From Lutibacter sp. (GTDB lineage Bacteria > Bacteroidota > Bacteroidia > Flavobacteriales > Flavobacteriaceae): 15,238 nt of DNA. Location of the stretch: the NCBI GenBank assembly GCA_036781305.1, contig DAIQBF010000048.1, forward strand, positions 1 to 15,238, given 5' to 3'. Numbering within the stretch: the first letter of the stretch is position 1; each line of letters begins with the position of its first letter. Below, piece by piece: positions 2,802-12,356 of this stretch. Both the position numbers and the translations under genes were made by a program. Under the pieces are notes generated by a model. The model worked only from the letters and a program-made list of their open reading frames with translations, was not told the DNA's origin and did not search any database.

Positions 2802-2945
2802 GGGCTTGCCTGCCCTTTTGGTGGGCGTTCCCCTGCGGGTCGGGCTTTTCGTTGCAATCCGTCATTGCGGAGCGTGGCAATCTGTTGAATATATTACTTC
2901 ATAAACTCGCAACGCCGGGATTTCCTCTGCAATCCCTAACGCAGC
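2802..2945. repeat. cluster of GC-rich short repeat modules (gggcttttcgttgcaatcc / gtcattgcggagcgtggcaatc / gggatttcctctgcaatccctaacgc)
   Basis: This is a GC-rich island in an AT-rich gap. Two direct tgcaatcc modules lie around 2853-2870 and 2917-2936. An inverted copy of the gcaatccctaacgc-type motif reappears at 12536-12550 (gcgtccctaggattgc). Confidence 0.6.
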
Positions 2946-3086
2946 TTAAATTACGATAGCTGATTTACGATTTTAGAATAAGAAATCTTAGATTCTGGAT
3001 TTGGTTTTTAATATTTTACTTGCTTTTAATCATAGAATACACAAGATGATTTATGAAATTAGAATTTAAAAGACTTAAAACTTTTT

Positions 3087-3128: not shown

Positions 3129-3189
3129 TTTTTGGTTCGGCGTTTTTTTATAATTTTTTCTTGCTTTTAGCCTCCGCTAGCGCGAGCGC

Positions 3190-3347
3190 AATGTCATTAA
3201 GTTAAGCCTTTAATGTCTTTATTTTGTCATTCCGAGGTACGAGGGATCTCATTATGCTAAGCTATTTGATGCGATTCCTCCTTTGTCGGGCACGAGCGAT
3301 AGCGAACTGGCGAAGCAATGACAAATATTCCCTTAACTTAATGACAT
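3190..3347. mobile_element. MITE-like nested-palindrome element, copy A (17-bp terminal inverted repeats, 125-bp core)
   Basis: IR-L aatgtcattaagttaag (3190-3206) pairs with IR-R cttaacttaatgacat (3332-3347), matching 16/17. The core has its own arms, tttgtcattccgaggtacgaggg (3223-3245) and gattcctcctttgtcgg...aatgacaaa. A second copy lies at 12126-12257. No ORF of its own. Confidence 0.65.
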
Positions 3348-3352
3348 CGAGC

Positions 3353-3474
3353 GCGAGCGTCCCGCTCGTGACTACAAGTAATTTTAGGGATTTTTTATTT
3401 CCTTTATTTGCAATTGTGTATAGCTCCAAAAAAATCAGGTTACTAGTGTTATTGGGTACGAGCGGGACGCTCGC
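3353..3474. repeat. perfect 17-bp inverted repeat pair (gcgagcgtcccgctcgt / acgagcgggacgctcgc) with an 88-bp spacer
   Basis: Segments 3353-3369 and 3458-3474 are exact reverse complements. A degenerate equivalent (14/17) lies at 12262-12278 / 12309-12325. Confidence 0.7.
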
Positions 3475-3532
3475 ACCAGCGAGAGGAAAAACCTCAAAAA
3501 AGTATTTCCGCTACACTCCATTACGCAAGATA

Positions 3533-3560
3533 AATTACGTTTTACGAATTGCGAATTACG
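3533..3560 (+). repeat. tandem heptamer array (aattacg, ttttacg, aattgcg, aattacg)
   Basis: Four contiguous 7-bp units were read directly. Related attacga motifs occur at about 2950-2975. Confidence 0.6.
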
Positions 3561-3664
3561 ATTTTAAAAAATGCTGTTAAGATAAATTTAAGCCTGTATA
3601 AATTAGCGATAATTTTTTTGTTTTTAATATTTAAACCTTAAATTTACAATAAAAAATTTGCATT

Positions 3665-4213
3665 ATGAAAAATGAAATTATGATTCCAGATGAAATAATT
3701 ACCAATAAAATATATTTAATCAGGGAACAAAAAGTTATGTTGGATGAAGATTTGGCTGAACTCTATAAAGTAGAAACCAAACAGTTAAAAAGACAGGTTC
3801 GCAGAAACATAGAACGTTTTCCCGAAGATTTTATGTTTGAACTCTCCAAAATTGAATTCGAAAACTTGAGGAGCCAATTTGGCACCTCAAAATGGGGAGG
3901 AACTCGTTATGCGCCTATGGCTTTTACCGAACAGGCCTGTCCTGAGCGTAGCCGAAGGAGTGTAGCTATGTTATCAAGTGTTTTAAGCAGCCAAACTGCC
4001 ATAAAAGTAAATATTCAAATTATAAGGGTATTTACAAAGATAAGACAAATGTTCACAGATAATTTAAGTTTAAAACTCGAAATTGAGGAAATAAAAAAGA
4101 AACTCTCCCATCAAAATAAAAATATTGAACTTGTATTTAGCTATTTAGATGAACTGATAGAGAAGAAAGAAAACCAAAAACCAAGAATTAAAATAGGCTA
4201 TAAAAAAGATTAA
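3665..4213 (+). CDS. ORF6N domain-containing protein (KilA-N-like DNA-binding domain plus C-terminal coiled coil)
   Basis: The N-terminal segment IYLIREQKVMLDEDLAELY..ETKQLKRQVRRNIERFPEDFMFEL...WGGTRY.P.AFTEQ...AMLSSVL.S..AIKVNIQIIRVF matches the ORF6N family pattern as I recall it. The C-terminus is Lys/Glu-rich and helical. It contains an in-frame repeat insertion (see the 3936-3959 feature). Confidence 0.8.
   Translation: MKNEIMIPDEIITNKIYLIREQKVMLDEDLAELYKVETKQLKRQVRRNIERFPEDFMFELSKIEFENLRSQFGTSKWGGTRYAPMAFTEQACPERSRRSVAMLSSVLSSQTAIKVNIQIIRVFTKIRQMFTDNLSLKLEIEEIKKKLSHQNKNIELVFSYLDELIEKKENQKPRIKIGYKKD
3936..3959 (-). repeat. 24-bp GC-rich repeat unit inserted in-frame in the ORF6N gene
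   Basis: The unit cctgtcctgagcgtagccgaagga is 62.5% GC. Removing it converts cag g..gt gta into cag ggt gta (Q-G-V), which is the expected FTEQGVAML family motif. Its 19-nt core, 3940-3958, matches the reverse complement of 6636-6654 at 17/19. Confidence 0.7.
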
Positions 4214-4225
4214 ATCTCAATAACT

Positions 4226-4774
4226 ATGTTAACTTATATTGCACTTTTGCGCGGGATAAACGTATCTGGTCACCATAAAATTAAAATGACCGAATTAAAG
4301 CAACTTTTTTTAGATTTAGGTTATAAAGAGATTTCTACCTATATACAAAGCGGAAATATAATTTTTAAGTCTAACATTAAGGAACCCATTCTTATTGAGG
4401 ACACCATAATTTCAGCCATTTCAAAACATTTTGGACACGCTATTAAGGTGCTGATATTAACCAAAAATGAATTGATTACTGTTTTTAATTCAAATCCATT
4501 TCTTGAAAAAAATCCATCTATGGATATTTCAAAATTACATGTTACATTATTAAATAAGAAACCAGATTTAGCTGGAATTCCACCTATTGAAGAACTAAAA
4601 GAAACAGGTGATGATGAATTTCAAATAATTGAAAACACCATTTATTTACATTGTCCAAATGGTTATGGAAACACAAAATTAAACAACAATTTATTTGAAA
4701 AAAAACTACAAGTTACCGCCACCACAAGAAACTGGAAAACCATTGGTAAACTCGTCGAATTAAGCAAGCAATAA
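4226..4774 (+). CDS. DUF1697 domain-containing protein
   Basis: The N-terminus YIALLRGINVSGHHKIKMTELKQLF..LGY..ISTYIQSGNIIF is the characteristic DUF1697 opening. The product is 182 aa. The gene starts 12 nt after the ORF6N stop. Confidence 0.8.
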   Translation: MLTYIALLRGINVSGHHKIKMTELKQLFLDLGYKEISTYIQSGNIIFKSNIKEPILIEDTIISAISKHFGHAIKVLILTKNELITVFNSNPFLEKNPSMDISKLHVTLLNKKPDLAGIPPIEELKETGDDEFQIIENTIYLHCPNGYGNTKLNNNLFEKKLQVTATTRNWKTIGKLVELSKQ

Positions 4775-4775
4775 T

Positions 4776-5951
4776 TTGAATCAGGAAATTTTAAATAAAG
4801 AAGTCCAAAATTTTATCAATTTAAATTTAAATTCGGATATAACAAAACTGATTTTAAAAGGAAGTCCGTTTGAACAAGTTTCGATTCAGGAAATTGCAGC
4901 GCAAATTCTGGCAAAAAACGCTTGTGAAAAAAAATTGCCCACTTGGTTTAATTCAAAAAACATTTACTATTCCAACAAACTGAATATTGAACAAACTTCT
5001 TCAGAAATTACTGCTAAGTATAAATCAGATTTGGTTTCAGGAGAAACTTTAATCGACATTACGGGTGGATTTGGCGTTGATGCTTACTTTTTTTCACAAA
5101 AAGTTAAATCAATAACACATTGTGAAATTGCCGAGGAATTGTCGAAAATTGTAATCCATAATTTCAAACGGTTAAAAGTTAAAAATGTTGAAACTCATTT
5201 TGGTGACGGCATTGAATTTATAAAAAATTCTAAAGAAAAATTCGATTGGATTTACGCAGATCCTTCGCGTAGAAATGATGCCAAAGGAAAAGTATTTCTA
5301 TTGGAAGACTGCTTGCCGAATATTCCGGAAAATCTGAATTTATTGTTTGAAAAAACGGATCATATTCTGCTTAAAGTCTCTCCTATTTTAGACATTTCAA
5401 GTGCCGTAAATGAGTTACAATTTGTAAAAGAAATTCATGTGGTTGCCATTGAAAATGAAGTGAAAGAATTGTTGTTTTTGTTGAAGAAAAATTGCACGAA
5501 AAACATTGACATTAATACAATTAACTTCAATAAAGAAGAAATCCAAAAATTTAATTTTAGCTTAAATGAAGCTATTTTACCAACTTTTTCCGAGCCAAAA
5601 AAATATCTATATGAACCCAATGCCGCAATTTTAAAAGCAGGCGCTTTTCAACAAATTTCGGCGCAGTTTAAAATTGATAAATTACACCAACATTCGCATT
5701 TATACACTTCAAATAAATTAACCGATTTTCCCGGAAGGAAATTTGAAATAAAAAATTGCATTTCTTACAACAAAAAGCAATTACAACAGTTAATTCCTTC
5801 AAAAAAAGCAAATATTACCACTCGAAATTTTCCCGAAACCGTAGCTCAAATTCGGAAAAAAACCGGATTAAAAGATGGCGGAAATCAATACCTTTTTTTT
5901 ACAACAGACATAAACAACAAGCATCTGGTGCTCATTTGTGAGAAAGTATAA
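4776..5951 (+). CDS. class I SAM-dependent methyltransferase with a C-terminal THUMP-like domain
   Basis: SAM motif I is LIDITGGFGVDAYFF and a DWIYADPSRR motif is present. The C-terminal half (LYEPNAAILKAGAF...HLYTS...FPGRKFEI) resembles the THUMP-like module of the Bacteroidota family. The TTG start is 1 nt after the DUF1697 stop, and the exact start is uncertain. Confidence 0.7.
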   Translation: MNQEILNKEVQNFINLNLNSDITKLILKGSPFEQVSIQEIAAQILAKNACEKKLPTWFNSKNIYYSNKLNIEQTSSEITAKYKSDLVSGETLIDITGGFGVDAYFFSQKVKSITHCEIAEELSKIVIHNFKRLKVKNVETHFGDGIEFIKNSKEKFDWIYADPSRRNDAKGKVFLLEDCLPNIPENLNLLFEKTDHILLKVSPILDISSAVNELQFVKEIHVVAIENEVKELLFLLKKNCTKNIDINTINFNKEEIQKFNFSLNEAILPTFSEPKKYLYEPNAAILKAGAFQQISAQFKIDKLHQHSHLYTSNKLTDFPGRKFEIKNCISYNKKQLQQLIPSKKANITTRNFPETVAQIRKKTGLKDGGNQYLFFTTDINNKHLVLICEKV

Positions 5952-6016
5952 AACTAAAAGTTGTTTTAGCAAAAATCATTAAAATTTAGTAATTTTAGCT
6001 TTTTATACTCACTAAA

Positions 6017-7654
6017 ATGGCAAATAAAAATATCCGCTCGTTATCATACAGAAAGGAATTAAATGATAACCTGTTCGAAAATATCGCAGATTTATCACAT
6101 AAAAACGCTTTAAAGTCTGATTTTCAGGAACTGGCAAAACGGTTTATGATCGATGATTCCGTGGTTGCGGCCACCGCATCTTTTTATGATTTCACTAGAG
6201 AAAGCAATCGGAACAAAAAGATTCATGTGTGCAGCGGAACGGCTTGCATGGTTGCAAATACCCAAAATAGTCTTCATAAAAATTTAGAAGATCATTTTGA
6301 CAAAGAGGAAATCGGAAATGCTGCCTGCGTTGGTCGTTGCCACACCAACAATGCGTTTATGTACAATGATAATACCTATTCGGCGCACAGCGAAAATGAA
6401 TTAAATTCAATTATCGACAATAAGAAACATCAAGAAAATAAATACAATATTGCTTGTAACACCACTCCTATTTTAACCGCTGAAATTGAAGATATTACCG
6501 CATTTTATCAATTGGCTGAAGTTCATAAAAAAAATTCGCAACAGGTAATTCAAGAAATAAAAACATCCAATTTACGCGGTCGCGGCGGTGCAGGATTCCC
6601 GTTTTGGTTTAAGTTGGATGCCGTTATAAAAGAGCCCTTCGACTCCGCTCAGGATGACACCCAAAAATACATTGTCTGCAATGCCGATGAAGGCGATCCC
6701 GGAGCATATTCGGATATGTATTTGATGGAACATCAGCCGCATAAAGTGCTTTTCGGAATGTATATGGCAGGGTTGACTGTCGGCGCAAATACGGGTGTTT
6801 TATACATCAGGGGAGAATATCCAGATTCCATCAAAATTGTGAGCAAAGCAATTTCTGAATTAAAAGAAAAAAACCTAATTAGGGATTTTAAATTCAAAAT
6901 TATTCGCGGACAAGGTTCTTATGTTTGCGGCGAGGAAACCGCTTTATTGAGTTCTATTGAAGGCTTGCGCCCGGAAGTTCGCGTTCGCCCACCCTATCCA
7001 GCACAATACGGTTTGTTTGGGAAACCAACTGTTTTGAGCAATGTGGAAACATTTGCGAACATTCATTGGATTTTAAAAAATGGCGGTGAAGCTTATGCGG
7101 CATTGGGAACAAAACAATCCACCGGAACAAAATTGGTGTCGTTGGACAGCTTTTTCAATACGCCGGGAATGTATGAAATTGAAATGGGAACGCCCTTAAA
7201 AACTGTTTTTGATGAATTTGGACATGGCTTAAAATCGGACATAAAAGCATTTCAAATTGGAGGGCCTTTGGGCGGAATTGTGCCTTCTGAGAAAATTAAG
7301 GATTTAACATTGGATTTTGAGTCGTTGAGCAGCAACGGATTTTTATTGGGTCATGCAAGTGTTGTTTCCATTCCAAAAGATTTTCCTATGATTCAATTTT
7401 TGGAACATTTAATGGAATTCACTGCGGATGAATCCTGCGGAAAATGCTATCCATGCAGAATTGGCACTTTCAGAGGCATGGAAATGCTTCAAAAAGCGCA
7501 ACAAGAAGATTATAAAATTGACCGTCAGTTATTTGATGATTTATTGGAAACCTTGGAAATAGGTTCACTTTGTGCGTTGGGTGGCGGTATTCCGTTGCCA
7601 GTAAAAAATGCATTGCAATATTTTGAGGATGAGTTGAAGGAATATTTCAAATAG
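6017..7654 (+). CDS. NAD(H)-binding diaphorase subunit of formate dehydrogenase; fused NuoE-like [2Fe-2S] and NuoF-like FMN/[4Fe-4S] domains (FdsG/FdsB-like)
   Basis: N-terminal CSGTAC...CVGRC is a thioredoxin-like 2Fe-2S pattern. [10 protein letters not shown] and [12 protein letters not shown] are the FMN/NADH motifs. [10 protein letters not shown]...GSLCALGG is the N3-type 4Fe-4S cluster motif. It sits directly upstream of the FDH alpha subunit. Confidence 0.85.
6636..6654 (+). repeat. second copy of the GC-rich repeat unit, in-frame inside the NuoF-like domain
   Basis: The reverse complement of ccttcgactccgctcagga is tcctgagcggagtcgaagg, matching 17/19 to 3940-3958. It encodes PFDSAQD in the linker between the RGRGGAGFP and [13 protein letters not shown] motifs, and that linker is longer here than I expect. 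Confidence 0.6.
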
Positions 7655-7670
7655 TATTTAAAAATTATTA

Positions 7671-7708
7671 CACAAAGACACACCGAGGAACACAAAGATT
7701 CACAAAGC
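7671..7708 (+). repeat. tandem 10-mer array (cacaaagaca caccgaggaa cacaaagatt cacaaagc), left arm flanking the GxxExxY gene
   Basis: A 10-bp periodicity was read directly. The array ends 3 nt before the ATG at 7712. It is the reverse complement of the array at 8087-8124. Confidence 0.75.
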
Positions 7709-7711
7709 AAA

Positions 7712-8083
7712 ATGACTGAAAATGAAATAGCAAGTGTTATTATTGGAAAAGCAATAGCTGTGCATAGGGAACTTGGACCGGGATTATTGGAATCTACTTA
7801 CCAAGAATGTCTTTTTTATGAGTTAAAAAATGACAATTTAAAGGTTGAAAAAGAAATAGCATTGCCAATTATTTATAAAGATATTAAATTGAATCACGGA
7901 TACAGAATTGATTTATTAGTTGAAAATAAAGTGGTTATTGAATTAAAAACAGTAGAGTTTTTAAATGATGTGCATACGGCTCAAATATTAACATACATGA
8001 AACTAGGAAATTATAAATTAGGTTTATTATTGAATTTTAATGTAAAACTTTTAAAGGAAGGTATCAAAAGATTTGTACTGTAA
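7712..8083 (+). CDS. GxxExxY protein (PD-(D/E)xK nuclease-like superfamily)
   Basis: The 123-aa product has the eponymous motif GPGLLESTYQECL and a DLLVENKVVIELK core (D...ExK-like). The size and layout are typical of the multicopy GxxExxY family. Confidence 0.85.
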   Translation: MTENEIASVIIGKAIAVHRELGPGLLESTYQECLFYELKNDNLKVEKEIALPIIYKDIKLNHGYRIDLLVENKVVIELKTVEFLNDVHTAQILTYMKLGNYKLGLLLNFNVKLLKEGIKRFVL

Positions 8084-8086
8084 AAT

Positions 8087-8124
8087 CTCTGTGAATCTTA
8101 GTGATTCTTTGTGAATCTCCGTGT
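8087..8124 (-). repeat. inverted 10-mer array (gtgaatctta gtgattcttt gtgaatctcc gtgt), right arm flanking the GxxExxY gene
   Basis: It starts 4 nt after the stop. Segment 8106-8124 (tctttgtgaatctccgtgt) matches the reverse complement of 7690-7708 (gctttgtgaatctttgtgt) at 17/19. Confidence 0.75.
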
Positions 8125-8265
8125 AATAACAACTAACTGGATATCCAAAAAGAATTAAAAAGTTATTTCACAAAGACGTAAAAAGAGAAAATACCTAAAT
8201 ACAGTACATATCTAAAATGACAATTATAAAAACTCAGAAACCTTGCGGTTAAAAAAACGAAAATC

Positions 8266-10980
8266 ATGAAAGCATTTATAAACAACATCGAACACGAATT
8301 TTTGCAAGGGGAAACCATGTTGGAATTTGTCAGAAGAATTGAAGAAAATAAAAATGCCATTCCAACGATGTGCCAGGATGACCGATTGGAAAATTTTGGT
8401 TCATGCAGGGTTTGTTCGGTTGAAGTGGCGCGTGAAAAAGACGGGTTAACAAAAACGATGGCTTCTTGCCACACCCCTATTTCTGAAGGATTGCATATTT
8501 ACCCAAACACAGAAAAAATAAAACGTCTTCGCAAAAATATTGTCGAATTGGTGCTAACCGATTATCCTGCAGATAAAATTTTTCCTTCCACAGGTAAAAA
8601 AGCAACACCTTTTCAGGAAACCATTGCTCAAATCGGAATTCCAGATATTCGTTATCCACAAGGAAAGAATCATTTAGATATTGAGCCAGATAGGGCGCAC
8701 CCTTATATAAAATCCGATTTATCACAGTGTATCAACTGTTTTAGATGCGTGAGAGCCTGTGAAGAAATCCAGGGAGAAATGATTTTGGGCATGTCAGGTC
8801 GCGGATTCGCAACCAACATTATCAAAGGATTCGACACCACTTTCAATGAATCGGCCTGCGTTTCTTGTGGCGCCTGCGTTCAAACTTGTCCGACCGAAGC
8901 TTTAACAGATAAATTCGAAACAAAAACCTTAATTCCGGATAAAACCGTTCGTACAACTTGCACTTATTGCGGCGTTGGCTGTCAGTTAGACGTTTCAGTT
9001 ATCGACGGAAAAATTAGGGGAATTCAAGCTCCTGAAACCGCCGAAGTAAATCAGGGCCATACCTGTTTAAAAGGTCGTTTTGCTTTTCAGTTTTACAACC
9101 ATCCCGATAGGTTGCGAGAACCTATGATTAAAAAGAATGGCAAATTTGAAGTGGTTACTTGGAACGAAGCCTACAATTTTATCACATCAAAATTAATTGA
9201 AATCAAAAATAAATACGGCGCAGATGCCATTGGTGGAATTTCCTCGTCAAGAGCCACCAATGAAGAGAATTATCTTATGCAAAAAATGATTCGTGTAGCC
9301 GTTGGAACCAATAATATTGATGGTTGCGCACGGGTTTGCCATGCACCTACTGCCTTCGGAATGCAGCAAGCTTTTGGAACTGGTGCTGCCACAAATTCTA
9401 TAGAAGATTTAAAACAAGCCGATGCTATTTTTATTTTCGGGGCAAATCCTGTTAAAGCCCATCCAGTAACTGGCGCTAAAATTAAGCAGGCTTTTATGAA
9501 GGGTGTCACTTCCATAGTTGTTGACCCAATCAGAACAAATTTGGCAGATTTGGCTACTCATTTTCTTCAAATCAGACCAGGAACCAATGTCGCCATTCTA
9601 AATATGATTGCACATTATATTATTAAAGAAGGATTGGTGAATCAGGATTTTATTGACACGCATACCGAAAAATATGAGGAATTTAAAGGCCATGTGGCCC
9701 ATTTGGACATGGATGAATTGGAAAAACTAACAGGTGTTTCTAAGGAATTGGTAAGAGATGCCGCCATTGCATATGCCTCAGCAGAAAGAGCGATGGAATT
9801 TCATGGCTTGGGCGTTACAGAACATTTTCAGGGAAGTAAAACGGTCATGTTATTGTCCAATTTAGCGATGATGACTGGAAATGTTGGCCGAAATGGCGTT
9901 GGCTTAAATCCGTTGCGCGGACAAAACAATGTTCAAGGTGCTGCAGATATGGGCGTACAACCACACCAAGGAGCTGGTTATATGGATATTAGCAAACCTG
10001 AAATTCAACAATATTATGCTCAAAAATACGGGATTGAAAAAATGCCGGAAAGTGTTGGATTAAAAATTCCTGAAATGCTGGATGCCGCCATCAACGGAAA
10101 AATTAAAGCGCTTTATATTGTTGGTGAAGACACTATTATGACCGACCCAAACTCTTATCACAGCATTAAAGCGTTCGGAAAATTAGAATTGATTGTGGTG
10201 CAGGAATTGTTTATGACCGCGACTTCAGAAATGGCGGATGTGGTGTTGCCGGCTTCTTCCTATTTTGAAAAAAATGGAACTTTCACCAATGGTGAGCGCC
10301 GTGTTCAACGTGTAAATAAAGTGATTGAGCCTATAGGAAACACAAAACCCGACGGACAAATTATTATAGATATTATGGGCAGATTGGGATACAACCAACC
10401 TACTGGTTTGACCTATGATGCCGCAAAAGTTATTGAAGAAATCGCGGATGTAATACCTTTTATGAAGGGGTTAACTTGGGAACGATTGGGTGAAAACGGA
10501 TTGCAATGGCCAATAAAAGAAGACGGCACCGACACTAAAATGCTGCATATCAACGGTAACTTCAAAAAAGGAATAGGCACTTTTCACCATTTTGATTTTG
10601 AAGAATCCCCAGAAATTGTTTCCCACGGAAAAATTTATCCTTTTATATTGACAACCGGTCGCGAACTAGAACATTACAATTCGGGAACCATGACGCGCAG
10701 AACCGACAATCAAATCATCTTGGGAGAAGACATTTTGGAAGTGCACCCGAAAGACGCTTTGGACAAAGGAATTAAAGACAATGAAATGGTTAGGCTGTTT
10801 TCCGACAGAGGAAGCGTTAACATTCCTATAAAGTACGCTAAATCGGTTAAAAGAGGCGTTTTAAGAACGACTTTCCATCATCCTGAAGTATTTATCAATC
10901 TGATTACAGGAAGCGTTGGAGACAAAGAAACAATGACTCCGGAATACAAAGTGGTTGCCGTTGATTTTGAAAAAGTTTGA
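8266..10980 (+). CDS. fdhF: formate dehydrogenase alpha subunit, molybdopterin-dependent, Cys-type (NAD-linked FdsA/FdhF class)
   Basis: The N-terminal 2Fe-2S ferredoxin-like region is CQDD...CRVCSVEV. 4Fe-4S motifs are CINCFRCVRACEE and CVSCGACVQTCPTEAL. The MopB cluster motif is CTYCGVGCQLDV. The active-site motif GCARVCHAPT has TGC (9337-9339) where Sec-type enzymes carry TGA. The C-terminal part is a molybdopterin dinucleotide-binding domain. Confidence 0.9.
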   Translation: MKAFINNIEHEFLQGETMLEFVRRIEENKNAIPTMCQDDRLENFGSCRVCSVEVAREKDGLTKTMASCHTPISEGLHIYPNTEKIKRLRKNIVELVLTDYPADKIFPSTGKKATPFQETIAQIGIPDIRYPQGKNHLDIEPDRAHPYIKSDLSQCINCFRCVRACEEIQGEMILGMSGRGFATNIIKGFDTTFNESACVSCGACVQTCPTEALTDKFETKTLIPDKTVRTTCTYCGVGCQLDVSVIDGKIRGIQAPETAEVNQGHTCLKGRFAFQFYNHPDRLREPMIKKNGKFEVVTWNEAYNFITSKLIEIKNKYGADAIGGISSSRATNEENYLMQKMIRVAVGTNNIDGCARVCHAPTAFGMQQAFGTGAATNSIEDLKQADAIFIFGANPVKAHPVTGAKIKQAFMKGVTSIVVDPIRTNLADLATHFLQIRPGTNVAILNMIAHYIIKEGLVNQDFIDTHTEKYEEFKGHVAHLDMDELEKLTGVSKELVRDAAIAYASAERAMEFHGLGVTEHFQGSKTVMLLSNLAMMTGNVGRNGVGLNPLRGQNNVQGAADMGVQPHQGAGYMDISKPEIQQYYAQKYGIEKMPESVGLKIPEMLDAAINGKIKALYIVGEDTIMTDPNSYHSIKAFGKLELIVVQELFMTATSEMADVVLPASSYFEKNGTFTNGERRVQRVNKVIEPIGNTKPDGQIIIDIMGRLGYNQPTGLTYDAAKVIEEIADVIPFMKGLTWERLGENGLQWPIKEDGTDTKMLHINGNFKKGIGTFHHFDFEESPEIVSHGKIYPFILTTGRELEHYNSGTMTRRTDNQIILGEDILEVHPKDALDKGIKDNEMVRLFSDRGSVNIPIKYAKSVKRGVLRTTFHHPEVFINLITGSVGDKETMTPEYKVVAVDFEKV

Positions 10981-10986
10981 ATTAAG

Positions 10987-11105
10987 GGAAGTCGGAAGTC
11001 GGAAGTTCGAAAACGTAAGTCGGAAGTCCGAAGTCGGAAGACGGAAGACGGGAGACAGAAGTCGGGAGAAAGGAGACGGAAGTCCGAAGACAGAAGTTCA
11101 AAAAA
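10987..11105 (+). repeat. degenerate tandem heptamer array, 17 units of SGAAGWC (ggaagtc-type)
   Basis: Units stay in phase every 7 nt from 10987 to 11105 (ggaagtc ggaagtc ggaagtt cgaaaac gtaagtc ggaagtc cgaagtc ggaagac ...). The array begins 7 nt after the alpha-subunit stop. Confidence 0.85.
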
Positions 11106-11144
11106 GGAATTTGTATTATGTAAAATGGATTTTGAATTTCGAGT

Positions 11145-11168: not shown

Positions 11169-11190
11169 TTAAATTTTGAATTTTGGATTT

Positions 11191-11260
11191 CACTTCTTTA
11201 TCCTTCAGACTTCGGACTTCGGTCTTCGGACTTCCAGCTTCTAACTTTCAACTTTACAAT
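11191..11260 (-). repeat. inverted heptamer array (tcggact-type, about 10 units) ending 9 nt before the fdhD start
   Basis: Units read cacttct ttatcct tcagact tcggact tcggtct tcggact tccagct tctaact ttcaact ttacaat. Segment 11216-11235 is the reverse complement of 11078-11097 at 19/20. Confidence 0.8.
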
Positions 11261-11269
11261 TAAAAAAGA

Positions 11270-12046
11270 ATGCAGACATTAAACTATGAAGGTTTACAAC
11301 TTACTGACGGAGTTCCGCAAAAAGTAACCGATGCTTTGGTGGTTGAGGCCGCTTTGCAAATAAACATAAATAAAGAACCCTACACAGTGGTGATGCGAAC
11401 GCCTGGAGACGATTTTGAATTGATCAGAGGCTTGCTGTATGCGGAAGATATTTATAAAGGTAAAGAAAATTTAAGCATTGAAGTCCTTGAGAAACGCGAC
11501 AACGGATTTTCAATATTAAATGCCTCAATTCCTAAAAAAAACCTCGGAAAAGGATATTTAAACAAACGTACCTTACTGTCGGTATCTTCCTGTGGTATCT
11601 GCGGAAAACAAAAATTGGAAGACATTAACCATAGCGGTGCCAAATTAATTAACAATATTATTTTCGACATTTCTAAGTTAGAAGAAATGTTTGTTGAAAT
11701 GAAATCGAAACAAGAAACTTTTGAAATATCCGGAGGCTCACATGCGGCGGCAATTTTTAATAAAAATTATGAAATAATTTCTTTAAAAGAAGACATTGGA
11801 AGACATAATGCAGTAGATAAAGTGGTTGGCGAATTGTTAAATTCAAATCAATTAAAGGAATCTTTTGTGATGCTTGTGAGCGGCAGGGTTTCCTATGAAA
11901 TTATTTCCAAAGCATTTATCGCTAAAATCCCAATTGTGGTGGCAGTGTCAGCCTGCTCCTCTTTATCTGTAGATTTTGCAAAAGAATTCGGTATTTGTCT
12001 GATTGGATTTTCAAGAGGCAACAAAGCTACTGTTTATGCTAAGTAA
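11270..12046 (+). CDS. fdhD: formate dehydrogenase accessory sulfurtransferase FdhD
   Basis: The 258-aa product has the SVSSCGICGK cysteine loop and the GRHNAVDKVVG motif. It lies downstream of the FDH alpha subunit. Confidence 0.9.
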   Translation: MQTLNYEGLQLTDGVPQKVTDALVVEAALQININKEPYTVVMRTPGDDFELIRGLLYAEDIYKGKENLSIEVLEKRDNGFSILNASIPKKNLGKGYLNKRTLLSVSSCGICGKQKLEDINHSGAKLINNIIFDISKLEEMFVEMKSKQETFEISGGSHAAAIFNKNYEIISLKEDIGRHNAVDKVVGELLNSNQLKESFVMLVSGRVSYEIISKAFIAKIPIVVAVSACSSLSVDFAKEFGICLIGFSRGNKATVYAK

Positions 12047-12067
12047 GTTGGAAAGTTAAAAAATAGA

Positions 12068-12088
12068 CCGAAGTCCGAAGTCCGAAGT
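12068..12088 (+). repeat. heptamer array, ccgaagt x3 (perfect), just after the fdhD stop
   Basis: Three perfect units were read directly. They are complementary to 11209-11222 (acttcggacttcgg) upstream of fdhD. Confidence 0.8.
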
Positions 12089-12125
12089 TCATTTCTAGAA
12101 TCAAATCAAACTCAATCGCTAGCGC

Positions 12126-12257
12126 AATGTCATTAAGTTAAGGGAATATTTGTCATTCCGACAAAGGAGGAATCGCATTAAATAGCTTAACATGATGTGA
12201 TTCCTCGTACCTCGGAATGACAAAATAAAGACGTTAAAGTCTTAACTTAATGACATT
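12126..12257. mobile_element. MITE-like nested-palindrome element, copy B (perfect 17-bp terminal inverted repeats, 98-bp core inverted relative to copy A)
   Basis: IR-L aatgtcattaagttaag (12126-12142) and IR-R cttaacttaatgacatt (12241-12257) are perfect. The core 12143-12240 is the reverse complement of the copy-A core minus a 27-bp segment. The outer flanks (cgctagcgc on the left, gagcgcgagcNtccNgctcgtgact on the right) have the same orientation as in copy A. Confidence 0.65.
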
Positions 12258-12356
12258 GAGCGCGAGCTTCCAGCTCGTGACTGCGCAAATTTAACAGCTA
12301 ACAAAAGCACGAGCGTGACGCTCGCGCCAGTCACCAGTGTGAGGGTTAAACCTAAG

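What the first reader, a model, noticed from the sequence alone, without database searches (positions are those of the whole stretch)
3935..3961. GC-rich repeat unit inserted in-frame in the conserved core of the ORF6N gene; precise excision restores the family motif
The protein reads ...RYAPMAFTEQ-ACPERSRRS-VAMLSSVLSS.... From memory, ORF6N proteins read FTEQGVAMLSSVL at this point. Deleting exactly nt 3936-3959 (cctgtcctgagcgtagccgaagga, 24 bp, 62.5% GC in an AT-rich gene) turns cag g|...|gt gta into cag ggt gta (Q-G-V), which recreates that motif. This is the signature of a small repeat that landed inside a gene without breaking the frame, comparable to Rickettsia palindromic elements. I am not aware of this being described for Flavobacteriia. 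Peptides such as PERSRR are typical of spurious ORFs read through intergenic repeats in this phylum, which supports a repeat origin.
Basis: partly seen in the sequence, partly recalled or inferred. Interest (0 to 1): 0.7.

Follow-up and report, generated by a model that had tools for sequence, protein, structure and literature searches.

The report
24-base hairpin repeat inside a gene
A 24-base hairpin-forming repeat unit, found almost unchanged in bacteria of many phyla, has landed in frame in the conserved core of a Lutibacter DNA-binding (ORF6N) gene, and a sister unit in a neighbouring formate-dehydrogenase gene, adding a short tolerated loop to each protein.

Summary
Window 3936-3959 (cctgtcctgagcgtagccgaagga) is a precise 24-nt surplus that splits the Gly codon of the ORF6N motif FTEQ-G-VAMLSSVL. 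Syntenic orthologues with 87-89% nucleotide identity lack exactly these 24 nt. Four independent assemblies carry it.

The insert is one copy of a dispersed repeat. The exact 24-mer occurs in at least 120 metagenome contigs in unrelated contexts. A version with two degenerate positions occurs in at least 120 genome stretches from more than 12 phyla.

The family has a fixed layout: a 4-nt linker, a 4-bp stem that covaries, and an invariant 12-nt cap GAGCGNAGYCGA. Units are 24 nt long and five of their six reading frames are open. They also occur as 24-nt-period tandems and nested in the loops of other hairpins.

A second unit (window 6635-6658, minus strand) lies in frame in the NuoF-like formate-dehydrogenase gene, at an indel hot spot.

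The ORF6N insert maps to a strand-to-helix turn in the structure model, and the gene stays under purifying selection (dN/dS 0.14).

In-frame repeat insertions of this general kind are already known (Rickettsia palindromic elements, intragenic REPs). This particular cross-phylum unit was not found in the literature I searched. How it inserts is unknown.

The parts
3665..4213 (+). ORF6N-domain gene (182 aa) that hosts the insert
   Evidence: ORF list and translation. Pfam PF10543 at 112 bits. Homologues are mostly 174 aa. dN/dS 0.14 between the two insert-bearing lineages.
3936..3959 (+). 24-nt repeat unit inserted between the 1st and 2nd base of the Gly codon; read in frame it turns G into ACPERSRRS
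   Evidence: Empty site in L122-L125. Identical 24-mer in L001, L126 and L373. Exact 24-mer in at least 120 metagenome contigs and a near-exact version in at least 120 genome stretches.
3936..3939 (+). 4-nt linker CCTG of the unit
   Evidence: CCTG[C/T] directly precedes the hairpin in many family members and is the joint in 24-nt-period tandems (L071, L043).
3940..3943 (+). 5' stem arm TCCT
   Evidence: Pairs with AGGA at 3956-3959. Stem covariation in the family: 85.1% of cells paired against 58.5% in shuffles, 0 of 500 shuffles as high.
3944..3955 (+). Conserved 12-nt cap GAGCGTAGCCGA. It contains GCGTAGC, and together with the following stem bases (3951-3957) reads CCGAAGG
   Evidence: Cap GAGCGNAGYCGA was the search key. 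The GCGNAGC and CCGAAGG motifs are described as mini-hairpin DNA in PMC13037366. No special stability is predicted by ViennaRNA.
3956..3959 (+). 3' stem arm AGGA
   Evidence: Complement of 3940-3943.
6017..7654 (+). NuoE/NuoF-like formate dehydrogenase beta-subunit gene that hosts the second unit
   Evidence: PDB homologues include 6tg9_B, annotated formate dehydrogenase subunit beta.
6635..6658 (-). Second 24-nt unit GTCATCCTGAGCGGAGTCGAAGGG (read on the minus strand), translated as PFDSAQDD in the loop before the [13 protein letters not shown] motif
   Evidence: Insert-less orthologues read KETN[A/T]QKY. There are 6 extra residues relative to solved structure 9bov_B. Relatives carry nested or tandem units at the same site (L127, L128, L129).

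Best explanation
Window 3936-3959 is one copy of a very small interspersed repeat that inserted into the ORF6N gene in a recent Lutibacter ancestor. The unit has a 4-nt linker, a 4-bp stem, an invariant 12-nt cap GAGCGNAGYCGA and the complementary stem arm, 24 nt in all.

The unit is 3n long and has no stop codon in five of its six frames, so the insertion neither shifts nor stops the frame. It is simply translated, replacing Gly with ACPERSRRS. This lengthens the turn between the last beta-strand (MAFT) and the following helix (VAMLSSVL) of the ORF6N domain. The protein tolerates it and stays under purifying selection.

Shown:
- the insertion, its exact boundaries and the empty site;
- membership of a dispersed cross-phylum family;
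- hairpin covariation in the family;
- a second in-frame unit in the neighbouring formate-dehydrogenase beta gene;
- nesting of units in hairpin loops;
- absence of a target-site duplication.

Inferred:
- The unit is read through by the ribosome and is not removed.
- The unit moves as a non-autonomous element, probably as single-stranded DNA handled in trans by a hairpin-recognising enzyme, as proposed for REP elements and their Y1/HUH transposases. It would prefer unpaired DNA next to an R-A-G motif.

I put about 0.9 on 'in-frame copy of a dispersed repeat that is tolerated' and about 0.25-0.3 on the specific HUH-type mobilisation. The overall confidence given is for the statement as a whole, weighted towards the first part.
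For: Insertion and empty site. Independent assemblies carrying the insert.

Family membership:
- The core CCTGAGCGNAGNCGAAGG occurs in at least 120 IMG/VR stretches, often preceded by CCTG[C/T] and sometimes in 24-nt-period tandems.
- CCTGTCCTGAGCGNAGYCGAAGGA occurs in at least 120 genome stretches from more than 12 phyla. My own estimate of the chance expectation is about 0.1.
- The exact 24-mer occurs in at least 120 metagenome contigs, at GC 0.32-0.7, almost all with different flanks.
- Units are enriched 16-34 fold over base-composition expectation in genomes that hold one.

Hairpin:
- All 21 cap occurrences in Lutibacter and phage loci have complementary 4-nt flanks of differing sequence.
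- 52 of 72 non-ascertained units have 4 of 4 Watson-Crick pairs, against 7.4% in shuffles.
- The formal count gives 85.1% paired against 58.5% (0 of 500 shuffles as high). Slid controls give 36-46%, and all four pairs change on both sides.

Second in-frame unit and dynamics at one site.

Other genes with in-frame units: a phage primase with three units lying inside about 50 residues that DnaG homologues lack, and long ORFs in low-GC loci.

Structure and selection:
- AlphaFold2 model, mean pLDDT 85.4: strand 85-88, insert 91-98 non-regular with pLDDT about 69, helix 99-107.
- dN/dS is 0.14 between insert-bearing lineages at dS 0.27. From that call's figures I calculate pS of about 0.225, so the 24 of 24 identity of the insert has probability about 0.002 if all 24 sites were neutral.

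Flanks:
- Positions -3 to -1 read R-A-G (GAG in 38% of 239 contexts), +1 is A or T, and there is no target-site duplication.
- 15% of contexts place the unit at the tip of a host hairpin, against 3% in the control. Units are also nested inside other units or CGTC-type REP loops.
Against: - No transposase or other enzyme family is enriched near about 360 unit-bearing loci.
- Standard DNA folding parameters give the 24-mer no more stability than shuffled sequence: -1.2 kcal/mol, z about 0. The hairpin therefore rests on covariation alone.
- Copy number in the source genome could not be measured. In about 110 kb of syntenic Lutibacter-lineage DNA, the only units are the ones inside these two genes.
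- Translation of the insert is not shown by any expression data.
- In one insert-bearing contig (L126) the gene is frameshifted at its 3' end. The L001 lineage shows faster protein change (dN 0.074 against 0.039 when compared with L122), so some relaxation of constraint after the insertion is possible.
- Near-identity of a 24-mer across phyla is hard to reconcile with ordinary species-specific REP/transposase co-evolution.
Confidence: 0.75

Rival explanations
1. This is an ordinary lineage-specific indel. The 8-residue surplus arose by slippage or local duplication, and its resemblance to a repeat is chance.
For: Only one clade carries it. There is only one copy of the exact 24-mer in the window.
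Against: The exact 24-mer recurs in at least 120 metagenome contigs with unrelated flanks. A 22-specified-base version recurs in at least 120 genome stretches, where I estimate about 0.1 expected by chance. No local donor sequence exists in the window.
Confidence: 0.02
2. The insertion killed the gene, or landed in an already dead gene, and the open frame is a leftover. The locus is a pseudogene, not a protein with a new loop.
For: The insert interrupts the most conserved motif and truncates the Pfam match. L126 has a 3' frameshift. L001 has non-conservative changes (L to P in the long helix) and a doubled dN/dS relative to the insert-less pair, 0.14 against 0.06.
Against: dN/dS of 0.14 at dS 0.27 after the insertion is far below 1. 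The window copy is full length with an intact C-terminus. The model keeps the fold, with the insert in a turn. In-frame units are also kept in an essential-looking formate-dehydrogenase subunit across many lineages.
Confidence: 0.12
3. The unit is kept because it works as a nucleic-acid signal inside the gene, not because it is a passive passenger. Candidate roles are an RNA hairpin that pauses ribosomes or marks a processing site, or a single-stranded-DNA hairpin used as a priming or protein-binding site.
For: The cap is invariant and the stem covaries across phyla. The insert is 24 of 24 identical across dS 0.27. GCGNAGC and CCGAAGG mini-hairpins are reported at primase and RNA-polymerase recognition sites on single-stranded DNA (PMC13037366). 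G-T pairs occur in stems.
Against: Units sit in genes in both orientations (ORF6N +, NuoF -, primase -,-,+), which argues against a role at the mRNA level. The NuoF unit decays freely in relatives, for example to PSNFAEDD, PYDSALNE and RFDTTQFS. No Rfam family matches at the units.
Confidence: 0.1
4. The 24 nt are not translated. They are removed from the message or bypassed by the ribosome, as with GC-rich inserts in some yeast mitochondrial genes, so the mature protein reads FTEQGVAM.
For: Removal would restore the family motif exactly. GC-rich hairpin inserts in AT-rich genes are the context in which translational bypassing is known (my own knowledge, not tested here).
Against: The unit is in frame and stop-free, so no bypass is needed. 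Related units in other genes evolve as coding sequence with amino-acid replacements. Units occur in either orientation. No bacterial splicing system for such inserts is known (my own knowledge).
Confidence: 0.03

Closest known systems
Intragenic REP units (GTAG- and CGTC-tagged palindromic repeats; Di Nocera et al. 2013, PMC3733652)
   Same: Both are short (20-40 bp) stem-loop repeats with a 4-nt tag at one end. Both are dispersed and mostly intergenic but sometimes sit in frame inside known genes, where single units encode about 8-9 residues; the paper's supplementary table lists examples. CGTC repeats lack a dedicated transposase and occur in Bacteroidetes. The window's intergenic hairpins (cgtcattgcggagcgtggcaatc at 2861-2883; tgtcattccgaggtacgagggatc at 3226-3249) fit the CGTC/TGTC type.
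   Different: The unit here has a 4-bp stem and a 12-nt invariant cap, whereas CGTC elements have 8-9-bp stems and 4-5-nt loops. The ORF6N copy carries the tag CCTG. The unit is near-identical across more than 12 phyla, and it is often found inside the loops of CGTC-type REPs, that is, as a separate module. The strings GAGCG and CGAAGG do not occur in that paper's text or supplements.
Rickettsia palindromic elements (RPE)
   Same: Both are selfish palindromic repeats inserted in frame in protein-coding genes and thought to be tolerated in surface loops. This is described in the background section of PMC3733652 and is also my own knowledge.
   Different: RPEs are about 100-150 bp, encode 30-50 residues and are confined to Rickettsia (my own knowledge). 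This unit is 24 nt, encodes 8 residues and is cross-phylum. Sequence relatedness to RPEs was not tested.
REP/REPIN elements mobilised by RAYT (Y1/HUH) transposases, and the IS200/IS605 family
   Same: The architecture is a 4-nt tag plus a hairpin. Insertion leaves no target-site duplication and occurs next to a short preferred motif (R-A-G here). The unit has an affinity for unpaired or hairpin DNA (PMC3479197 and PMC6006769 are listed but were not read).
   Different: No RAYT or TnpA gene was found near the units. REP families are normally specific to a species or genus and co-evolve with their RAYT, whereas this unit is nearly invariant across phyla.
Mini-hairpin DNA d(GCGNAGC) / CCGAAGG (Hirao and co-workers; review PMC13037366)
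   Same: The cap contains GCGTAGC, and the cap-stem junction reads CCGAAGG. The review describes these motifs as extraordinarily stable, nuclease-resistant DNA hairpins found at phage and plasmid priming sites and at an N4 promoter.
   Different: Those are single functional sites, not dispersed repeats. Whether the unit actually adopts such a fold was not tested, and ViennaRNA shows no extra stability.
Mobile GC clusters of yeast mitochondrial genomes, and PARCEL coding palindromes
   Same: Yeast GC clusters are short GC-rich palindromic units in AT-rich genomes that can sit within coding regions (PMC8811140 and PMC4464245, listed but not read). PARCELs are palindromic repeat coding sequences spread horizontally among distant microbes (PMC2996958).
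   Different: GC clusters are organellar and about 30-40 nt. PARCELs encode 25-residue tandem domains in surface proteins. Neither shares the cap sequence, as far as I know.

Membership tests
ORF6N domain proteins (Pfam PF10543) | Significant match to the ORF6N profile | tested here: met
   112 bits against a cut-off of 27.8. The match covers residues 14-90 and profile positions 1-78 of 86, and it ends at the insert.
ORF6N domain proteins (Pfam PF10543) | Conserved FTEQG[VI]AMLSSVL segment uninterrupted | tested here: not met
   The segment is interrupted by 8 extra residues. This is a departure from the family norm, not grounds for exclusion.
REP (GTAG/CGTC-tagged palindromic repeats) | 20-40 bp unit able to form a stem-loop | tested here: met
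   24 nt with a 4-bp stem supported by covariation.
REP (GTAG/CGTC-tagged palindromic repeats) | Terminal GTAG or CGTC (TGTC/CCTC) tag | tested here: inconclusive
   The ORF6N unit starts with CCTG, so the tag is not met. The NuoF unit is preceded by tGTCA, which matches the TGTC variant allowed in PMC3733652.
REP (GTAG/CGTC-tagged palindromic repeats) | CGTC-type geometry: 8-9-bp stem beginning with AT, a 4-5-nt loop and a CCA tail | tested here: not met
   The unit has a 4-bp stem, a 12-nt cap and no CCA tail.
REP (GTAG/CGTC-tagged palindromic repeats) | Many copies per genome, mostly intergenic | not testable with these tools
   The source genome is not available as a whole. In other unit-bearing genomes the density is 24-51 extra units per Mb against 1.5 expected.
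REP/REPIN-RAYT systems | Associated Y1/HUH transposase gene flanked by the repeats | tested here: inconclusive
   No such family appears among the recurrent ORF clusters around about 360 loci. Only about 8 kb per site was sampled, and only 10 of the larger cluster representatives were read by eye, without a profile scan.
Rickettsia palindromic elements | Palindromic element of about 100-150 bp encoding 30-50 residues in frame | tested here: not met
   The unit is 24 nt and encodes 8 residues. The in-frame property is shared.
MITE | Terminal inverted repeats, a target-site duplication, and a size of 50 to several hundred bp | tested here: not met
   No target-site duplication at the ORF6N site or in 242 contexts. 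The size is 24 nt.
Flavo-1 RNA (Rfam RF01705) | Covariance-model match at or above the gathering score | tested here: not met
   The only hit is elsewhere in the window (2834-2950, minus strand), at 35.9 bits against a threshold of 42. Nothing matches at 3936-3959.
Mini-hairpin DNA (GCGNAGC / CCGAAGG) | Presence of the heptamer motif | tested here: met
   GCGTAGC at 3946-3952 and CCGAAGG at 3951-3957. The motif definition comes from PMC13037366.
Mini-hairpin DNA (GCGNAGC / CCGAAGG) | Extraordinary thermal and nuclease stability of the folded strand | not testable with these tools
   ViennaRNA with DNA parameters gives -1.2 kcal/mol and z about 0. UV-melting or nuclease assays are needed.

The most novel reading that the evidence does not exclude
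The 24-nt unit (linker, covarying 4-bp stem, invariant GAGCGNAGYCGA cap) may be a pan-bacterial ultra-small mobile module, smaller than any described transposable element. Some widely conserved host or phage function acting on single-stranded or hairpin DNA would keep it nearly invariant across more than 12 phyla. It inserts without target duplication, preferentially into hairpin loops. Because it is 3n long with five open frames, it would act as a general generator of 8-residue loop insertions in proteins of bacteria and their phages.
Probability: 0.3. Interest if true: 0.85.

Novelty: new variant of a known kind. Interest (0 to 1): 0.62.

Why it matters
This gives a clean, datable example of how a selfish DNA repeat can add residues to a conserved protein core without destroying it: the empty site is known, the insert boundaries are exact, and purifying selection continues afterwards.

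More broadly, the inserted unit belongs to a family that appears almost unchanged in very distant bacteria and in phage contigs, nests in hairpin loops and repeatedly ends up in frame in real genes. If that family is truly mobile, it would be a widespread and overlooked source of short protein insertions. It would also be a source of the odd peptides (PERSRR, FDSAQDD, PSTxLR, PVLSxxEG) that clutter hypothetical-protein annotations. Finally, it would raise the open question of which enzyme moves a 24-base element.

Tried and rejected
- First AlphaFold2 run on a shallow alignment (19 close homologues): mean pLDDT 51, unusable. It was replaced by a 102-sequence alignment.
- PDB sequence search for an ORF6N structure: no credible match.
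- Rfam: no family at the unit in the window or in 18 unit-bearing loci. The single Acido-Lenti-1 hit in L193 lies elsewhere and is unrelated.
- Literature searches by nucleotide strings and repeat-derived peptides: nothing relevant. Keyword searches gave only the general REP, RPE and MITE literature. The RepRanger paper has no relevant detail.
- Exact 24-mer in IMG/VR: 0 hits, although the degenerate core is common there.
- Folding energies: no signal.
- Search for an enzyme gene recurrently next to units, by all-against-all BLAST of 6954 ORFs: only abundant housekeeping and phage structural families came up.
- Target-site duplication: none found.
- Hammerhead, k-turn and tRNA D-arm resemblances of the cap were considered by eye and dropped, because the core positions do not fit. 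This was my own reasoning with no tool test.
- NJ tree of the NuoF-like proteins, to decide whether the hot-spot states reflect gains or losses: the states are interleaved (27 parsimony changes in 121 sequences). Repeated loss, repeated gain and recombination cannot be told apart.
Full report
**1. The observation**

Window 3936-3959 reads cctgtcctgagcgtagccgaagga. It is 24 nt and 62.5% G+C, inside ORF 3665-4213(+), whose surroundings are 28-38% GC. The ORF translates to a 182-aa protein reading ...RYAPMAFTEQACPERSRRSVAMLSSVLSS....

The protein is an ORF6N-domain protein: PF10543 at 112 bits against a cut-off of 27.8. The profile match stops at position 78 of 86, exactly where the surplus begins.

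- Most of the 120 best homologues in the 5.8-billion-protein collection are 174 aa, and 16 of the 18 aligned read FTEQG[VI]AMLSSVL. Only P0001 (a Lutibacter MAG) and P0030 share ACPERSRRS.
- Among 150 cluster representatives at 50% identity, the 85 that could be scored all have just G plus V/I at this point.
- At the DNA level, the syntenic orthologues L122-L125 (87-89% identical in this gene) read gaacaaG|Gcatc or gaacaaG|Gaata, with a clean 24-nt gap.

So the surplus sits between the first and second base of the Gly codon, and its boundaries are unambiguous.

The same insert is present in four places:
- the window;
- an independent ENA assembly that is 99.987% identical to the window (L373);
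- a Lutibacter MAG contig that is 88.6% identical over the whole region (L001);
- a Logan contig (L126).

It is therefore not an artefact.

**2. The insert is a copy of a dispersed repeat family**

The window has no second copy of the 24-mer. A relaxed search for the core found a sister unit at 6636-6652 on the minus strand (see section 4).

In public collections:
- The flanks of those hits show that CCTG[C/T] very often precedes the core directly, and that head-to-tail copies have a 24-nt period (L071, L043). The insert therefore corresponds to exactly one family unit.
- CCTGTCCTGAGCGNAGYCGAAGGA has 22 specified bases, and I estimate about 0.1 matches expected by chance in 596 Gb. The organisms include Acidobacteriota, Chloroflexota, Planctomycetota, Alpha-, Gamma- and Deltaproteobacteria, Binatia, Eremiobacterota, Gemmatimonadota, Nitrospirales, Chthoniobacterales, Leptospiraceae, Fibrobacter, a Wolfebacteria (CPR) MAG and several Bacteroidota (Flavobacterium, Winogradskyella, a Flagellimonas flava isolate).
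- The exact 24-mer is in at least 120 metagenome contigs with GC from 0.32 to 0.7, almost all with different flanks.
- In unit-bearing genomes, further cap-bearing units occur at 24-51 per Mb, against 1.5 expected from base composition.

No sequence conservation extends beyond the unit, except a purine-rich R-A-G just 5' of it and A/T just 3' of it.

**3. Anatomy of the unit**

I searched every locus held for the 12-nt cap GAGCGNAGYCGA alone. The four bases on either side are complementary, although their sequence differs from copy to copy: TCCT/AGGA, TATT/AATA, GTTC/GAAC, CACT/AGTG, TGCT/AGCA, CGGT/ACCG, GGCT/AGCC and others.

- Among 72 units that were not picked up through a stem-containing search pattern, 72% have 4 of 4 Watson-Crick pairs, against 7.4% after shuffling.
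- The formal count on 87 such units gives 85.1% of cells paired against 58.5% (0 of 500 shuffles as high). Slid controls give 36-46%, and all four pairs show changes on both sides.

The unit is thus a 4-nt linker (CCTG, GTCA or NGGT), a 4-bp stem, the invariant cap and the return stem, 24 nt in all.

The cap contains GCGNAGC, and with the stem it reads CCGAAGG. A 2026 review describes these motifs as extraordinarily stable 'mini-hairpin DNA' found at priming sites and at a single-stranded-DNA promoter (PMC13037366). Standard nearest-neighbour parameters give the 24-mer no more stability than shuffled sequence. The fold therefore rests on covariation, not on energy.

Read directly from the sequence, the unit has a stop codon (TGA) in only one of its six frames, whatever N and Y are. 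The open frames give PVLSxxEG, CPERSRR, SFxxAQDR, PSxxLRT and LRLRSGQ. These are the peptides seen wherever units lie in open frames.

**4. A second in-frame unit, and a hot spot**

Window 6635-6658, read on the minus strand, is GTCATCCTGAGCGGAGTCGAAGGG. It lies in the NuoE/NuoF-like formate-dehydrogenase beta gene (6017-7654) and is translated as PFDSAQDD in ...[32 protein letters not shown].

- Insert-less syntenic orthologues read KETN[A/T]QKY, so the 24 nt stand where they have 6 nt.
- A solved homologue (9bov_B) is 6 residues shorter in this loop.
- Among 120 close homologues, about half have no insert and many have the PFDSAQDD type in various states of decay: PSNFAEDD, PYDSALNE, RFDTTQFS.
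- Others carry an AT-stem unit, AGGTTATTGAGCGGAGCCGAAATA (L129).
- One has two such units in tandem with a 24-nt period (L128).
- Three have a TATT-stem unit nested precisely inside the cap of the first unit, CCTGAGCG|TGGTTATTGAGCGTAGTCGAAATA|GAGTCGAAGG (L127).

On a neighbour-joining tree the states are interleaved, with 27 parsimony changes in 121 sequences. Repeated loss, repeated gain and recombination cannot be separated.

L127 has yet another unit in the NuoE/NuoF linker of the same gene.

**5. The phenomenon is general**

- In a 34%-GC phage contig (L132), a DnaG-type primase has three units, two on the minus and one on the plus strand. They are in frame and lie inside about 50 residues that 30 DnaG homologues lack. 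Those homologues are only 31-36% identical, so the boundaries are soft.
- In low-GC loci, several further units lie well inside open frames of 300-1900 codons, for example in Winogradskyella L154, Bacteroidetes L159, and L083, L067 and L096. These were not checked against homologues.
- Elsewhere, units sit at gene junctions (L131).
- Units sit in the loops of CGTC-type REP hairpins (gtcattcccgcgaaa[unit]gcgggaatcc) and inside other units (L278, L371).
- Statistically, 15% of 242 contexts have at least 6 nt of inverted complementarity across the unit, against 3% in the control. 13% have direct repeats, against 4%. There is no target-site duplication.

**6. Consequence for the ORF6N protein**

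With a 102-sequence alignment, the AlphaFold2 model is confident (mean pLDDT 85.4). It places a strand at 85-88 (MAFT) and a helix at 99-107 (VAMLSSVLS). The insert (91-98) is a non-regular excursion of lower confidence, about 69 against about 90 on either side. So the insert lengthens a strand-to-helix turn.

The window and L001 lineages both carry the insert and therefore diverged after it arrived. Between them dN/dS is 0.14 at dS 0.27. The insert-less pair L122/L125 gives 0.06 at a similar dS. Purifying selection continued, perhaps somewhat relaxed. L001 has a Leu-to-Pro change in the long helix, and L126 a 3' frameshift.

The insert itself is 24 of 24 identical across that divergence. I calculate this has probability about 0.002 if all 24 sites were neutral (pS about 0.225, derived). 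It does not distinguish protein-level from DNA-level constraint.

**7. How it most likely works**

Shown:
- A unit of a dispersed hairpin family was inserted, without duplication or loss of host bases, at ...AAG|G... .
- It preserves the frame and the gene remains constrained.

Inferred:
- The eight codons are simply translated. The unit is stop-free and in frame. Sister units evolve as coding sequence and occur in either orientation, which argues against an mRNA-level device.
- On the insertion step I can only argue by analogy. The layout of a 4-nt tag plus hairpin, the absence of a target-site duplication, the short preferred 5' motif and the affinity for unpaired or hairpin DNA all resemble REP elements and the IS200/IS605 family. 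Those are handled as single-stranded DNA by Y1/HUH enzymes (papers listed; PMC3733652 was read).

Against this analogy, I found no such gene recurrently near units. The near-invariance of the unit across phyla is also unlike ordinary REP/RAYT pairs. I give the HUH-type mechanism about 0.25-0.3.

**8. Comparison with what is known**

In-frame palindromic repeats are established. Rickettsia RPEs are one case. More pertinently, GTAG- and CGTC-tagged REPs occur inside genes of several phyla, where single units encode 8-9 residues, and CGTC repeats lack a known transposase and occur in Bacteroidetes (PMC3733652).

The window's own intergenic hairpins are of the CGTC/TGTC type (2861-2883, 3226-3249, and the inverted pair at about 12152-12222).

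The unit studied here fails the CGTC geometry, having a 4-bp stem and a 12-nt cap, and the ORF6N copy has a different tag. It is often a passenger inside CGTC-type loops. The strings GAGCG and CGAAGG appear nowhere in that paper or its supplements. Searches by sequence string and by derived peptide found nothing in the held literature.

I therefore file it as a new variant of a known kind (intragenic REP-like repeat), not as a member of the RPE, CGTC-REP, MITE or Flavo-1 families.

**9. Verdict**

What the tools add:
- the empty site and the exact boundaries;
- the unit's anatomy, with covariation;
- its cross-phylum near-invariance;
- a second in-frame unit 2.7 kb away at a dynamic hot spot;
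- nesting of units in hairpin loops;
- evidence that the host gene stays functional.

The mobilising mechanism and the copy number in the source genome remain open.

Noticed in passing
window 6635-6658 (minus strand), in gene 6017-7654: A second 24-nt unit (GTCATCCTGAGCGGAGTCGAAGGG) lies in frame in the NuoF-like formate dehydrogenase beta gene and is translated as PFDSAQDD. The site is an indel hot spot among Lutibacter relatives, with no insert, decayed inserts, AT-stem units, a tandem pair and a nested pair all observed.
   Followed up: yes
window 7712-8083 with inverted repeats 7665-7707 / 8087-8129: A small PDDEXK_3 (PF13366) gene sits between the formate dehydrogenase beta and alpha genes and is flanked by 43-nt inverted repeats. 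It is present in the window, L001, L125, L127 and L373 but absent in L122-L124, where the alpha gene follows the beta gene by 7 nt. This looks like a presence/absence gene cassette.
   Followed up: partly
window 3179-3373 and 12122-12282: Two copies of a composite repeat of about 160-190 nt lie in inverted orientation (111 nt at 91% complementarity, plus 36 nt at 94%). They bracket the whole ORF6N-to-FdhD cluster, about 8.9 kb. Each contains TGTC-tagged hairpins. The ORF6N upstream spacer is 908 nt here but 258 nt in L122.
   Followed up: no
window 10987-11137, 11190-11254, 12060-12091: Degenerate heptamer tandem arrays, (GGAAGTC)n and its complement (CTTCGGA)n, lie on both sides of the fdhD-like gene 11270-12046 and form long imperfect inverted repeats.
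   Followed up: no
window 2834-2950 (minus strand): A sub-threshold match to the Rfam Flavo-1 RNA (35.9 bits against a gathering score of 42, E about 1e-5 on the 1-kb search) lies in the repeat-rich spacer upstream of ORF6N. The same spacer holds the CGTC-type hairpin cgtcattgcggagcgtggcaatc at 2861-2883.
   Followed up: partly
L132 3799-3909 (IMG/VR contig IMGVR_UViG_3300044712_002070): A phage DnaG-type primase (ORF 3370-6762) carries three units in frame after its zinc finger (..GDFDSAQSPGDPSVPSTPLSHQGSTSKIPYGCLSVAEDT..). Three more units lie in the spacer 9590-10016 of the same contig.
   Followed up: partly
L127 1742-1765: A further unit (GTCA GTTC GAGCGCAGTCGA GAAC, peptide VSSSAVEN) lies in the NuoE/NuoF linker of the same formate dehydrogenase beta gene in another Lutibacter MAG. 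That gene therefore holds three units in all.
   Followed up: partly
L126 62-544 (protein P0030) and L001 177-713 (protein P0001): In the other insert-bearing lineage, the ORF6N gene is frameshifted near its 3' end in one contig (160 aa). In the other contig it is shortened by 4 residues, with a Leu-to-Pro change in the long helix. This may be incipient decay after the insertion.
   Followed up: partly
L193 3330-3450, and similar Acidobacteriaceae loci (L133, L155, L174, L214, L240): In Acidobacteriaceae the unit is part of a larger recurrent composite, ...GCGCGNAGTCGAAGAG[unit]ACCCCGGCGATGCTTGTT..., that looks like units nested within units.
   Followed up: no
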